A DNA stretch of 28,226 nt from Promethearchaeota archaeon (GTDB lineage Archaea > Asgardarchaeota > Odinarchaeia > Odinarchaeales > JBHLKK01). The stretch spans positions 1 through 28,226 of the forward strand of contig JBHLPL010000010.1 of the NCBI GenBank assembly GCA_048939465.1, written 5' to 3'. Of this stretch, positions 10,486 to 27,301 are shown piece by piece (the first letter of the stretch is position 1; each line of letters opens with the position of its first letter). The position numbers and the translations under genes were made by a program. The notes under the pieces are model-generated. The model did no database searches. It was not told the DNA's origin and saw only the letters and a list, made by a program, of their open reading frames with translations.

Positions 10486-10587
10486 TGCGGTCGCCGGGAT
10501 TTGAACCCGGGTCGTGGGCGTTCTTCTCCGAGTCACTATTTGCGGATTGGCAGGCCCATGTCCTAAGCCAGACTAGACTACGACCGC
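10486..10587 (-). tRNA. trnG-GCC: tRNA-Gly(GCC) with 27-nt canonical intron (37/38) at 10521-10547; no encoded CCA
   Basis: Acceptor GCGGTCG/CGACCGC, anticodon arm TGGGC-CTGCCA^C-GCCCA, T-loop TTCAAAT. BHB inner helix TCCG/CGGA. Confidence 0.95.
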
Positions 10588-11219: not shown

Positions 11220-11322
11220 TGGTGGACCGGAGGGGATTTGAACCCCTGGCCTACGGATTCCTACAGAACATAGGAATTCTCCGCCATGCCAAGGCGGCGA
11301 TCTTCCGCTGATCTACCGGCCC
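11220..11322 (-). tRNA. trnA-GGC: tRNA-Ala(GGC) with 28-nt variable-loop intron (45/46) at 11251-11278; CCA encoded
   Basis: GGGCCGG/CCGGTCC-ACCA with G3:U70, CCGCC-TTGGCAT-GGCGG. BHB: bulges AG^A and AG^G, H GCGG/CCGT, inner helix ATTCCTA/TAGGAAT. Confidence 0.93.
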
Positions 11323-18344: not shown

Positions 18345-18488
18345 AGATAACCACCTACAGAAGCCAATTTACAGAGGTTCAACGGAAAGATCTGATGTTA
18401 AGCTTAAGTTTTAACTTTATCGGCCGAAAGGGCCTCCGCACGAACTCCTCCTGCAGTTTGCTATAAAGGCCTACAGACAGTGCTTTAT

Positions 18489-18709
18489 GTTCTTCTCCGT
18501 AAGAAGACTCCAACTGAGGGGGTGAAGGCGGATTGCGAGGAATAAGATGCTTGGTTTTACGACAGACACGTGGAATTGAGTCGAGGTAGCACTCGCCGAT
18601 TCGTAAACACAGAGTTTCAGGGCAGGAACTGTCCGCAGAGCCAGTAAGACATATCCCGCTGGGAATGGAAGAAGCAGGAAGCTCCGCCCAAAAGGACGGA
18701 GTAGTTCAC
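18489..18709 (+). mobile_element. Non-autonomous miniature IS200/IS605 derivative (221 bp): left end + omega-RNA-like scaffold + right end, no ORF
   Basis: Preceded by TTTAT; left end aligns with 25974ff; 18616-18709 is 81/95 identical to 27187-27281; ends in AGTTCAC. Confidence 0.85.
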
Positions 18710-18729
18710 ATTCTTACCACTACCAAAAA
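18616..18729 (+). ncRNA. Putative stand-alone TnpB omega/reRNA scaffold plus about 20-nt guide (5' boundary uncertain)
   Basis: Hairpins GGGCAG-GAA-CTGTCC, CAT-A-TCCC/GGGA-ATG and CTCCG/CGGAG are conserved with the tnpB 3' region. Confidence 0.6.
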
Positions 18730-18784
18730 TAAAATAAGTAGCAACGTCGAAAGAATCTCAAATATTGTCAATGGAGGAGATTTC

Positions 18785-19231
18785 TTGTCTATTACTATGA
18801 GATGGAATAGAACACCATCCATCGGCATTGCTATATTTCTTATAGGACTTGCAGGCATCGCTCAGATTCCTGCAATATTGTTTGCTCAGATCTTTCTTGT
18901 AGTCAACAGTGAATACCTGTTAGTATTGGTACCGTCAGGAGTGACTCTGGTTTTATCTGCAGCCGAGATACTTCTAACCGAGACACTGATCCGCAGGAAG
19001 AAAGGCAGAAGAAAACAGCTGTTCGGCTTTGCTCTAAGAGCGTCTTTGGTTGTTCTAGGAATCTTTTTTGCAATATATTTTCTGCCATTTGCACTCAGCT
19101 ACGTTCTAATTCCCCCAGAGCCAATAAGAACTCTTTCTAGAGCTGCCAAGTTCGTGATTGTGATAAACTCAGCGGCCATAACAACTGCAATCGTAGCTTC
19201 TATTTTTGAGCTTAGCTCCAGGACTAGATAG
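18785..19231 (+). CDS. Hypothetical membrane protein (about 4 TM); start TTG 18785 or ATG 18797
   Basis: Four hydrophobic segments with a basic RRKKGRRK loop; GGAGGA 6 nt before TTG 18785. Confidence 0.6.
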   Translation: MSITMRWNRTPSIGIAIFLIGLAGIAQIPAILFAQIFLVVNSEYLLVLVPSGVTLVLSAAEILLTETLIRRKKGRRKQLFGFALRASLVVLGIFFAIYFLPFALSYVLIPPEPIRTLSRAAKFVIVINSAAITTAIVASIFELSSRTR

Positions 19232-25812: not shown

Positions 25813-25973
25813 TTCGAAGACCCTCTAGAGGTAAAACAATTACGAACAGTTCTTGGCCTGCTTCATCTTGTTCTGGGTTGCTTTTTATCGTACGAAATGC
25901 AGGACCCAGAACGGCATCTTACATTTCGGTCCTTGTCAGCAAGTTGACGACATATATCTGTTGAGCAATTTAT

Positions 25974-27281
25974 CTCTTTCTCCGCAAAAAGACTCCATCC
26001 GAGAGGTGGTGATGAATTGAGTTGTCTTTAAATGATTTCTTGATGATTAAATCTTGGACGAACTTAAAAAATCCCGGAAATAGGTTTGAGAGATGAACCG
26101 CACCTACAAATATCGCTTATACCCGACCAAACAACAAGAGACTCTTCTTACTCAATGGCTTAATACCTGCCGTGCGTTGTACAACAACTCGCTTGCAGAG
26201 CGAAGGCAAGCGTGGAAGACTAGCAAAAGAACAGTCACTTACACTGAGCAGGCCAACCAACTGAAAACCGCAAAGAAGACCAATCCACACTTAAGGAAGG
26301 TTCACTCACAGGTTCTTCAAGATATTCTAAGAAGACTTGACAAAACCTTCAAGAACTTTTTCAAACGGATCAAAATGGGAGAAAAGGCAGGCTATCCACG
26401 ATTCAAAGGAAAAAACAGGTATGATTCCTTCACCTATCCCCAAAGCGGCTTTGCCCTCAAAAAGAAGAAGCTTACCCTATCAAAGATCGGTAAAGTAAAC
26501 ATTAGACATCACCGTCCTATCCCGTCTGAAGGAAATATCAAGACCTGCACGATTAGGCGTGACATAGACCACTGGTACGCGTGCTTTTCTGTTGAACTTC
26601 CCGAGGTCAAACCTTCCACCACACCTTTTCTACGAGAAGTGAGACAGATTGGTGTGGACGTTGGACTTAAGAACTTGTTGGCACTAAGCAGTGGTGAGAT
26701 TGTAGAGAATCCACGCTGGTTTAGAAGGACTGAAAAAAAGCTGGCGAAAGAACAAAGGAGTCTCTCACGCAAAGAGAAGAGGTCAAATAACCGTGAAAAG
26801 CAGCGGATCAAGGTGGGACAATTACACAGAAAGGTGCGCAATCGGAGAAATGACTTCCACCACAAGATTAGTAGAGAGTTGGTCAACACATACGACCTGA
26901 TCGTGTTTGAGAATTTGACGATCAAAAACATGGTAAAGAATCCACATCTTGCCAAGTCCATTGCTGACGCAGGGTGGGGACAGTTGATACGGTTTACCCA
27001 GTACAAAGCGGAGGAAGCTGGTACGCGGGTGGAGTGTGTCAATCCGAGGGGTACAACCCAAATCTGTAGTAGGTGTGGGAGTGTTGTTTCAAAAACCCTT
27101 GCAGTACGCGTTCATGAGTGTCCCTATTGTGAGCTCACGCTGGATAGGGATGTTAATTCTGCGATAAATATTCTGAACCGATCGCCTTCAGGGCAGGAAC
27201 TGCCCGTAGGGCCTGTAAGACATATCCCGTTGGGGAATGGATGAAACAGGAAGCTCCATCCGAAAGGGCGGGGCAGTTCAC
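25974..27281 (+). mobile_element. IS200/IS605-family element, tnpB-only (IS1341-like), 1308 bp
   Basis: TTTAT target 25969-25973; left-end hairpin CTCCATCC-GAGA-GGTGG with AAGA at +16..+19; right-end hairpin CTCCATCC-GAAA-GGGCGGGG preceded by GAAG; terminal TCAC. Confidence 0.9.
26093..27244 (+). CDS. tnpB: RNA-guided endonuclease TnpB
   Basis: N-terminal YKYRLYPT, RuvC GVDVG / VFENL / DRDVNSAINI (D-E-D intact), Zn finger CSRC/CPYC. Confidence 0.95.
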   Translation: MNRTYKYRLYPTKQQETLLTQWLNTCRALYNNSLAERRQAWKTSKRTVTYTEQANQLKTAKKTNPHLRKVHSQVLQDILRRLDKTFKNFFKRIKMGEKAGYPRFKGKNRYDSFTYPQSGFALKKKKLTLSKIGKVNIRHHRPIPSEGNIKTCTIRRDIDHWYACFSVELPEVKPSTTPFLREVRQIGVDVGLKNLLALSSGEIVENPRWFRRTEKKLAKEQRSLSRKEKRSNNREKQRIKVGQLHRKVRNRRNDFHHKISRELVNTYDLIVFENLTIKNMVKNPHLAKSIADAGWGQLIRFTQYKAEEAGTRVECVNPRGTTQICSRCGSVVSKTLAVRVHECPYCELTLDRDVNSAINILNRSPSGQELPVGPVRHIPLGNG

Positions 27282-27301
27282 ATAAGAGTCTTGACTCTCT
27301 T
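27187..27301 (+). ncRNA. Putative omega/reRNA 3' scaffold plus guide of the tnpB element (5' boundary uncertain)
   Basis: Overlaps the tnpB 3' end and right end; GGGCAG-GAA-CTGCCC hairpin; conserved with 18616-18709. Confidence 0.7.

What the first reader, a model, noticed from the sequence alone, without database searches (positions are those of the whole stretch)
18489..18729. ORF-less miniature IS605 carrying its own omega-RNA scaffold and a different guide: candidate trans-acting guide cassette for the TnpB 7.4 kb away
Seen: a 221-bp element with the same TTTAT target, AAGA at exactly +16..+19, GAAG before the right-end hairpin, and terminal TCAC as the tnpB element. Its last 94 nt are 81/95 identical to 27187-27281, and several changes preserve pairing (CTGCCC to CTGTCC wobble; right-end stem CTCC/GGGG to CTCCG/CGGAG). 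The flank gives the guide ATTCTTACCACTACCAAAAA, unlike ATAAGAGTCTTGACTC in the full element. Known: in IS608-type elements 4-nt guide sequences select the cleavage sites (AAGA/TTAT and GAAG/TCAC fit that rule), and TnpB loads an RNA from the right end plus flank. Inference: one TnpB serves several dispersed mini-guides, so protein-free elements borrow both TnpA and TnpB.
Basis: partly seen in the sequence, partly recalled or inferred. Interest (0 to 1): 0.8.

Follow-up and report, generated by a model that had tools for sequence, protein, structure and literature searches.

The report
Guide-RNA-only mini transposon in Asgard archaeon
This 221-base, gene-less offshoot of an IS200/IS605 transposon keeps the guide-RNA scaffold of a nearby TnpB nuclease; it is a real member of a conserved family of such cassettes in Asgard archaea, but this kind of element and its borrowing of enzymes have already been described.

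Summary
Window 18489-18709 is a 221-bp ORF-less IS200/IS605 derivative. It sits exactly between TTTAT and the flank ATTCTTACC, and both sister species have an empty site there. Its last 94 nt are 81/95 identical to the right end of the tnpB-only element (25974-27281).

It belongs to a family of about 14 full and 3 partial copies in this 1.96-Mb Asgard MAG, which holds one cognate, intact tnpB under purifying selection and one tnpA with matching ends. The family was found only in genomes that carry the cognate TnpB, across several Asgard lineages.

Evidence for function at the family level:
- A five-helix fold with compensatory changes, including one helix that TnpA does not need.
- 95% retention of the bases that are invariant in TnpB-linked scaffolds.
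- A TATA-like box about 30 nt upstream of the fold in 38 of 42 copies.
- One orthologous copy conserved well above neutral sites.

The "trans guide cassette" reading is therefore well supported for the family. This copy has lost the TATA-like box, has two mismatches in its left-end hairpin, and differs at 5 of 53 invariant scaffold bases, so its present activity is doubtful.

The concept is published (standalone ωRNAs; PATEs encoding ωRNAs). This is a new member of a known kind. Other copies of the family were already noted elsewhere in this genome by this scan.

The parts
18484..18488 (+). TTTAT target / transposon-adjacent motif of the mini
   Evidence: Read. G002 has an empty site with TTTAT followed directly by the flank, and G001 has GTCCAT plus the flank.
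18489..18709 (+). 221-bp ORF-less IS200/IS605 derivative (PATE / standalone ωRNA cassette), family A
   Evidence: No internal ORF above 32 aa. Absent from the syntenic sites in G001 and G002.
18504..18507 (+). Left-end guide tetranucleotide AAGA, directly 5' of the left-end hairpin
   Evidence: The tnpB element has it at the same offset, and the position is conserved in the family.
18508..18527 (+). Left-end hairpin, weakened in this copy (6 of 8 pairs)
   Evidence: Compared with the family consensus. The mismatches were read.
18541..18549 (+). Position of the family's TATA-like box (TTTAAATA); here degenerate (AATAAGATG)
   Evidence: the box is present at -28..-33 of helix 1 in 38 of 42 copies and absent here.
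18573..18602 (+). Helix 1, a mini-specific 5' stem-loop that replaces the ORF-embedded part of the tnpB-linked RNA
   Evidence: 97.6% of cells paired; 2 pairs with compensatory change.
18616..18709 (+). 94-nt scaffold shared with the tnpB element's right end (helices 2-5)
   Evidence: 81/95 identical; structure; invariant positions.
18678..18681 (+). Right-end guide tetranucleotide GAAG
18682..18701 (+). Right-end hairpin (7 of 8 pairs)
   Evidence: This is helix 5, where 6 of 8 pairs covary across the family.
18706..18709 (+). Terminal TCAC cleavage site
   Evidence: All copies end in GTTCAC and then diverge.
18710..18729 (+). Flank that would serve as the guide; unique in the genome
   Evidence: No second site with 2 or fewer mismatches.
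25969..25973 (+). TTTAT motif of the tnpB element
25974..27281 (+). tnpB-only (IS1341-type) element, the cognate full-length partner
   Evidence: Absent from the syntenic site in G001 and G002.
26093..27244 (+). tnpB gene, 383 aa, intact
   Evidence: Pfam OrfB_IS605, Cas12f1-like_TNB and HTH_OrfB_IS605. Full-length match to ISDra2 TnpB 8bf8, E = 1e-60. dN/dS 0.15-0.18.
27187..27281 (+). Right end and ωRNA-type scaffold of the tnpB element
27282..27297 (+). Flank / guide of the tnpB element

Best explanation
The 221-bp element is a non-autonomous internal-deletion derivative of an IS1341-type (tnpB-only) IS200/IS605 element. In published terms it is a palindrome-associated transposable element that is also a standalone ωRNA cassette. 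It keeps the left end with its hairpin, the position of the tnpB promoter, a roughly 135-nt structured RNA module (a mini-specific 5' stem plus the 94-nt scaffold shared with the tnpB right end), and the right end.

Inferred mechanism:
1. The single Y1 transposase TnpA of the genome (contig C105) excises and inserts these elements as single-stranded DNA, 3' of TTTAT-like motifs.
2. Transcription from the internal TATA-like box yields scaffold plus flank.
3. The single cognate TnpB (26093-27244) loads this RNA in trans.
4. After an excision, TnpB cuts the restored empty site (TTTAT plus flank), so the mini is copied back from a sister chromosome.

Shown here: the structure, the boundaries, past mobility, family-wide sequence and structure constraint, and co-occurrence with the cognate TnpB. 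Inferred: transcription, loading and cleavage. This copy has an intact scaffold fold, but it has lost the TATA-like box and has a weakened left-end hairpin, so it is probably a poorly expressed, decaying member.
For: - Ends and scaffold are homologous to the tnpB element.
- Empty sites in two sister species fix the boundaries and show no target duplication.
- The genome has about 14 full and 3 partial family copies against one cognate tnpB.
- The only tnpA is at C105:1180-1545. Its element has left and right ends nearly identical to the minis' ends.
- TnpB is intact, aligns over its full length to ISDra2 TnpB, and has dN/dS of 0.15-0.18 across three species.
- In 42 minis from 6 genomes, 96.5% of cells pair against 89.5% in shuffles. 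There are 113 compensatory cells against 39 (0 of 500 shuffles reach this). Slid controls give 30-48% pairing. Helix 4, which is not a TnpA hairpin, covaries at 3 of 4 pairs.
- The 53 positions invariant in 14 TnpB-linked scaffolds are kept at 95% in the minis, against 57% for variable positions.
- A TATA-like box lies at -28..-33 of helix 1 in 38 of 42 minis, although the upstream spacer has diverged.
- The family was found in 6 of 41 related genomes, exactly those with TnpB at 67% identity or more, and also in two Borrarchaeum genomes.
- Lineage-specific scaffold variants are shared between the minis and the resident tnpB.
- An orthologous mini in three species is 85-90% identical. Third codon positions next to it are 62-79% identical, the neighbouring intergenic DNA is 77-85% identical, and tnpB dS is 0.5-0.75.
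- In this copy 32 of 33 scaffold pairs are intact.
Against: - There are no transcript, binding or cleavage data.
- This copy lacks the TATA-like box, has 2 mismatches in the 8 pairs of the left-end hairpin (read), and differs at 5 of 53 invariant scaffold positions, which ranks it about 34th of 42.
- The gene upstream is divergent, so read-through cannot replace the promoter.
- Covariation is concentrated in a few lineages, so the number of independent events is small, and the same pairs could form in single-stranded DNA.
- Families B and D show that minis can be numerous without a detectable cognate nuclease in this assembly.
- The assembly is a 91% complete MAG in 152 contigs, so 'one tnpB' and 'one tnpA' are lower bounds.
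Confidence: 0.65

Rival explanations
1. Dead deletion relic or plain MITE. The mini is mobilised by TnpA only, and the scaffold homology is leftover sequence with no RNA role.
For: This copy has lost the TATA-like box and has a weakened left-end hairpin. G000 copies are on the whole the most diverged of the family. PATEs formed by core deletion are common in archaea (PMC3119063). Families B and D persist without a detectable nuclease in this assembly.
Against: Conservation is highest in helices 1-3, which TnpA does not need. Helix 4 covaries. Invariant TnpB-scaffold positions are kept at 95%. The promoter-like box is conserved at a fixed distance across distant lineages. An orthologous copy is conserved above neutral sites. 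The family was found only in searched genomes that hold the cognate TnpB.
Confidence: 0.2
2. Portable promoter or structured 5' leader. The minis persist mainly because their internal promoter drives the co-oriented gene just downstream. The target TTTAT(A) resembles an archaeal TATA core, so insertions tend to land in promoters.
For: Of 15 family-A copies, 7-8 end 11-80 nt upstream of a co-oriented ORF start, against 19% of intergenic TTTAT sites (p about 0.003-0.015 with crude ORF calls). In 8 of 15 copies the first flank base is A, which makes TTTATA-like junctions. The window copy is co-oriented with the membrane-protein gene about 77 nt downstream.
Against: This does not explain the conservation of the TnpB scaffold positions or the co-occurrence with TnpB. 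The window copy lacks the box. A conserved A/T-rich stretch between the mini and the gene could be that gene's own promoter. ORF starts were called crudely.
Confidence: 0.1
3. The conserved fold acts only in single-stranded DNA, as an extended right end that improves TnpA-mediated excision or integration, and not as an RNA.
For: IS200/IS605 elements move as single strands of this same strand. Helix 5 and the left-end hairpin are known TnpA substrates. Pair counts cannot tell RNA from DNA.
Against: Studied TnpA enzymes need only the subterminal hairpin plus the guide and cleavage tetranucleotides (IS608 literature, from my own knowledge). A promoter-like box is conserved just upstream of the fold. 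The same fold is the 3' end of tnpB, where ωRNAs are known to be made (PMC10055086).
Confidence: 0.05

Closest known systems
Standalone ωRNAs of OMEGA systems (Altae-Tran et al. 2021, as summarised in PMC10691335)
   Same: A mobilised ωRNA locus without effector or transposase, in the same genome as an effector-containing locus, with a different flank as guide. Reported to work in trans with compatible effectors.
   Different: Here the host is an Asgard archaeon and the effector is a TnpB. The cassette keeps an archaeal TATA-like box and has its own 5' stem in place of the ORF-embedded part. No experiment exists for this family.
PATEs (palindrome-associated transposable elements) of Haloquadratum walsbyi and Geobacillus stearothermophilus (PMC3119063; PMC10055086)
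   Same: ORF-less elements with IS200/IS605-type subterminal hairpins, no terminal inverted repeats and no target duplication. They arise by core deletion and outnumber the coding elements. Meers et al. state that PATEs often encode ωRNAs that would have to be used in trans by TnpB.
   Different: This is a different host phylum. The family is heterogeneous (73-86% identical between copies) yet structurally constrained, and it is shared across several Asgard lineages.
ISDra2 / IS608 (IS200/IS605 family) with the TnpB-ωRNA homing model
   Same: A pentanucleotide target or TAM 5' of the left end, and guide tetranucleotides 5' of each hairpin. AAGA with TTAT and GAAG with TCAC follow the IS608 position-by-position pattern. 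The ωRNA comes from the right end plus flank. TnpB resembles ISDra2 TnpB (8bf8, E = 1e-60).
   Different: The TAM is TTTAT rather than TTGAT or TTAC. The element discussed here carries neither tnpA nor tnpB.

Membership tests
IS200/IS605 family (non-autonomous derivative) | Subterminal hairpins at both ends and no terminal inverted repeats | tested here: met
   The left-end hairpin (18508-18527) and right-end hairpin (18682-18701) are similar to each other and to those of the tnpB and tnpA-tnpB elements.
IS200/IS605 family (non-autonomous derivative) | Insertion 3' of a short specific motif, without target-site duplication | tested here: met
   TTTAT-like motifs precede the left end in most copies. 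Empty sites in G001 and G002 show the motif followed directly by the flank.
IS200/IS605 family (non-autonomous derivative) | Guide tetranucleotide 5' of each hairpin that matches the cleavage site by the IS608 rule | tested here: met
   AAGA/TTAT and GAAG/TCAC are at the expected positions. The pairing rule itself is recalled from the IS608 literature and was not tested.
IS200/IS605 family (non-autonomous derivative) | A Y1 (HUH) TnpA available in the genome with compatible ends | tested here: met
   There is one Y1_Tnp gene, at C105:1180-1545 (126.7 bits). The ends of its element match the minis' ends. Actual mobilisation was not tested.
Standalone ωRNA / ωRNA-encoding PATE | No protein-coding gene inside the element | tested here: met
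   The longest ORF wholly inside the element is 32 aa.
Standalone ωRNA / ωRNA-encoding PATE | Carries the scaffold found at the 3' end of a TnpB element in the same genome | tested here: met
   81/95 identity to 27187-27281. The fold is shared. Positions invariant in TnpB-linked scaffolds are kept at 95% in the family. This copy keeps 48 of the 53.
Standalone ωRNA / ωRNA-encoding PATE | The RNA is transcribed, loaded by TnpB and directs cleavage | not testable with these tools
   There is only indirect support: a conserved TATA-like box in 38 of 42 copies, which this copy lacks.
Rfam ωRNA-type families (e.g. IS605-orfB motifs, HEARO) | A match to a curated covariance model | tested here: not met
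   No Rfam 15 hit at gathering score in the window, and none at E of 1 or less on 8 loci that hold minis and the tnpB end.

The most novel reading that the evidence does not exclude
Family A may be an old, self-standing lineage of guide-only replicators. These would be promoter-bearing ωRNA cassettes with their own 5' stem that have co-diversified with one TnpB clade across several Asgard lineages and outnumber it up to about 15 to 1. They would be kept by selection in situ, and they would often sit in the TATA region of host genes because the TAM (TTTAT) resembles the TATA core, so that they donate a promoter and an ωRNA leader to the downstream gene. That would make them more than decay products: either parasites of the TnpB/TnpA machinery or a host-used regulatory layer.
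Probability: 0.3. Interest if true: 0.6.

Novelty: new member of a known kind. Interest (0 to 1): 0.35.

Why it matters
It gives a clean natural example, in Asgard archaea, of the modular use of the TnpB system. One nuclease gene, one transposase gene and many small cassettes each pair the nuclease's RNA scaffold with a different flank.

The family-wide constraint is the kind of comparative evidence that has been missing for the published idea that PATE-encoded ωRNAs are used in trans. That constraint includes structure, invariant bases, a promoter-like box, co-occurrence with the nuclease and conservation in place.

The family also offers a minimal natural scaffold of about 135 nt, with a defined archaeal promoter-like box, for testing this 383-aa TnpB. 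It does not change current concepts.

Tried and rejected
- **Rfam:** nothing beyond two tRNAs in the window, and nothing at E of 1 or less on 8 loci with minis.
- **Global MAFFT alignments of the filled and empty sites** were misleading. I replaced them by direct reading and local alignment.
- **Empty site of the tnpB element:** it could not be read to the base, because the intergenic DNA is too diverged. Only its absence from the syntenic gap is shown.
- **Second genomic targets of the guides:** none with 2 or fewer mismatches next to a TAM for any family-A guide. An exapted regulatory targeting role is therefore not supported.
- **IscB family search in the genome:** only a sub-threshold HNH-like hit, so families B and D are not explained by an IscB.
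- **The C105 tnpA-tnpB element:** it has no minis that carry its own scaffold.
- **Covariance model:** I did not build one, because nhmmer profiles already recovered the family.

Full report
**Observation.**
- TTTAT (18484-18488) precedes it.
- AAGA occupies +16..+19, directly 5' of a hairpin.
- GAAG (18678-18681) precedes a second, similar hairpin (18682-18701).
- The element ends in TCAC (18706-18709).

The tnpB-only element (25974-27281; tnpB 26093-27244) has the same layout. blastn aligns 18616-18709 to 27187-27281 at 81/95 identity, E = 5e-24. A 23-nt core pattern occurs only at these two places in the window and never in shuffles. The left ends also align. No ORF above 32 aa lies inside the element.

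**Boundaries and mobility.** The two congeneric genomes G001 and G002 have the flanking genes in synteny but lack the 221 bp.
- G002 reads TTTAT followed directly by the flank.
- G001 reads GTCCAT followed by the flank.
- Neither shows a target duplication.

The tnpB element is also absent from its syntenic gap in both. Their intact tnpB copies (82-83% amino-acid identity) lie elsewhere. Both elements have therefore moved, or been precisely lost, since these species split. G001 and G002 look closer to each other than to G000, so one gain and one loss are equally parsimonious.

**Host.** The window carries intron-containing tRNA genes, EMG1/NEP1 and an FKBP26-type gene. The same-genus MAG is deposited as a Candidatus Hodarchaeota archaeon. 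The other TnpB relatives are Sifarchaeum, Borrarchaeum and a Promethearchaeota MAG. The host is thus an Asgard archaeon. Earlier notes of this scan call it Odinarchaeia, which I could not confirm.

**Family in the genome.** In the 1.96-Mb, 152-contig MAG the mini has 13 further full-length relatives of 221-231 bp. These are 73-80% identical to the window copy and up to 86% identical to each other. There are also three partial or shortened copies. All end in GTTCAC and then diverge. Most are preceded by TTTAT or a one-base variant.

There is one cognate tnpB. Profile searches find two more TnpB genes:
- one at C105, next to the only Y1 tnpA of the genome;
- one split between contigs C70 and C55.

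The C105 element's left and right ends are almost identical to the minis' ends, so TnpA supply in trans is plausible.

Separate profiles for the left and right ends find 74 and 54 sites respectively. These define further ORF-less families:
- B: about 13 copies of roughly 350 bp.
- C: about 11 copies of roughly 290 bp, with TTCAT as target and GTTTAC as end.
- D: about 4 copies.
- About 10 terminal-only elements of roughly 55 bp.

Family C carries the right-end scaffold of the C70/C55 TnpB. The pattern of one nuclease with many minis therefore occurs twice. Families B and D have no detectable nuclease here.

**Is the RNA module constrained?** Across the 14 G000 copies, conservation is uneven.
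- Highest: helix 2 (0.96), helix 1 (0.91) and helix 3 (0.89).
- Lowest: the spacer and linker (0.73-0.75) and the covarying right-end hairpin (0.77).

I then collected 28 more minis from five other genomes and aligned the RNA part of all 42. For a five-helix structure:
- 96.5% of cells pair, against 89.5% in column shuffles (0 of 500 reach this).
- There are 113 compensatory cells against 39 (0 of 500).
- Slid controls give 30-48% pairing.
- Compensatory pairs occur in helix 5, the TnpA hairpin (6 of 8 pairs), in helix 4, an internal hairpin that TnpA should not need (3 of 4), and in helix 1 (2 of 11).

Kinship inflates these counts. The helix-4 variant arose perhaps once or twice.

The 53 columns invariant in 14 TnpB-linked scaffolds from at least six genomes are kept at 95% in the minis, against 57% for variable columns. 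Column-wise conservation correlates at r = 0.68. Lineage-specific variants, such as GATGAAACAGG, GATGAATCAGG and GATGATTCAGG together with the matching hairpin types, are shared between the minis and the resident tnpB.

Folding shows the same architecture for the tnpB 3' end and the minis. The exception is the 5' stem, which lies inside the ORF in the full element and is replaced in the minis by a different, mini-specific stem.

**Promoter-like box.** In 38 of 42 minis a TTTAAATA, TTTTTAAA or TTTAAGTA motif lies 28-33 nt upstream of helix 1. This holds even though the sequence between the left-end hairpin and the box differs completely between distant lineages. The same box sits upstream of tnpB in the full element. 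It fits an archaeal TATA box that would start transcription at helix 1. That is an inference, since no transcript data are at hand.

**Link to TnpB.**
- Among 41 related genomes, family A was found in six (counting G000), exactly those with a TnpB at 67% identity or more.
- Two Borrarchaeum genomes with 64-67% TnpB copies also hold many minis. A Methanophagales genome with a 57% TnpB holds none.
- These are only about four independent lineages, and the genomes are incomplete.
- TnpB is intact and aligns end to end with ISDra2 TnpB, with the RuvC and zinc motifs visible in the alignment.
- It evolves at dN/dS of 0.15-0.18 between the three congeners.

**Conservation in place.** One mini (G000 C59, G001 C52, G002 C133) is orthologous in all three species. 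It is 85-90% identical. By comparison, third codon positions of the neighbouring gene are 62-79% identical, the adjacent intergenic DNA is 77-85% identical, and tnpB dS is 0.5-0.75. This is a single locus, but it argues against neutral decay.

**This copy.**
- Its scaffold fold is nearly intact, with 32 of 33 pairs.
- It departs at 5 of 53 invariant scaffold positions, about rank 34 of 42.
- It has 10 private changes at columns that are conserved in the family.
- Its left-end hairpin has two mismatches (read).
- It is one of only four copies without the TATA-like box.
- The gene upstream is divergent, so read-through cannot substitute for the promoter.

I therefore rate this copy as probably poorly expressed and poorly mobile, while the family looks functional.

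**Guides.** None of the family-A flanks has a second near-match in the genome. This fits the homing and retention model, in which the target is the element's own empty site. It gives no sign of exapted targeting.

**Comparison with what is known.**
- PATEs derived from IS605/IS1341 elements were described in haloarchaea (PMC3119063).
- Meers et al. state that PATEs often encode ωRNAs that would need TnpB in trans (PMC10055086).
- Altae-Tran et al. summarise that standalone ωRNAs occur beside effector loci and were shown to work in trans (PMC10691335).

The additions here are the Asgard setting, the mini-specific 5' stem, the conserved promoter-like box, the multi-lineage co-occurrence and the in-place conservation. 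First readers of this scan had already noted other copies of the family on other contigs.

**Verdict.** It is a new member of a known kind, of moderate-to-low interest.

Noticed in passing
G000 contigs C70:3-866 and C55:5858-6043 (not in the window); family C minis, e.g. C38:1591-1877 and C118:3636-3930: A third TnpB gene is split across two contig ends that overlap by 77 identical bases. Its right-end scaffold, ending in GTTTAC, is shared by about 11 ORF-less minis of roughly 290 bp with TTCAT as target. This is a second case of one nuclease with many minis in the same genome.
   Followed up: partly
G000 family B, e.g. L028:331-680 (C77:9030-9379) and C10:12065-12395; family D, e.g. C138:26979-27277: About 13 copies (family B, roughly 350 bp) and about 4 copies (family D, roughly 300 bp) of ORF-less elements have the same type of ends and a TATA-like box, but different long structured cores. 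No cognate nuclease was found in this assembly and there is no Rfam match. Family B was also found in G002 but not in G001.
   Followed up: partly
G000, e.g. C77:45641-45700, C23:2007-2050, C73:16326-16369: About ten elements of roughly 55 bp look like a left end fused directly to a right end through the shared hairpin. They resemble the 52-bp terminal-only PATEs described in Haloquadratum.
   Followed up: no
Family-A copies in G000 (C137:8599-8824, C137:2633-2852, C39:12674-12893, C68:13251-13469, C71, C133) and window 18489-18709: Of 15 copies, 7-8 end 11-80 nt upstream of a co-oriented ORF start, against 19% of intergenic TTTAT sites (p about 0.003-0.015 with crude ORF calls). In 8 of 15 copies the junction would read TTTATA-like. 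The target motif may overlap archaeal TATA boxes, and the minis may supply promoters.
   Followed up: partly
window 18665-19231: An ATG inside the mini's right end (18665) is in frame, with no stop, with the downstream membrane-protein gene. The conserved start of that gene is near 18786-18799. The extension is probably a chance artefact of ORF calling.
   Followed up: no
G002 locus L057:2224-2861, syntenic to window ~18445-18490: Just upstream of the mini's insertion site, G002 has about 600 bp of extra sequence that looks like a small gene on the opposite strand. G000 and G001 lack it.
   Followed up: no
G000 C116:24486-24594 versus G001 locus L033: Where G001 has a full family-A mini, G000 has only a remnant of about 105 bp that matches the left end. 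This is an example of decay or internal deletion in place.
   Followed up: no
window 10486-10587 and 11223-11322 (minus strand): Two tRNA genes, each with an insertion of about 29 nt relative to the tRNA model. This is typical of archaeal introns.
   Followed up: no
window 25974-27281; G001 C3:50165-51474; G002 C1:13131-14453: The cognate tnpB element is single-copy in each of the three congeneric assemblies. In G001 and G002 it does not lie at G000's locus. The gene is intact, with dN/dS of 0.15-0.18.
   Followed up: yes
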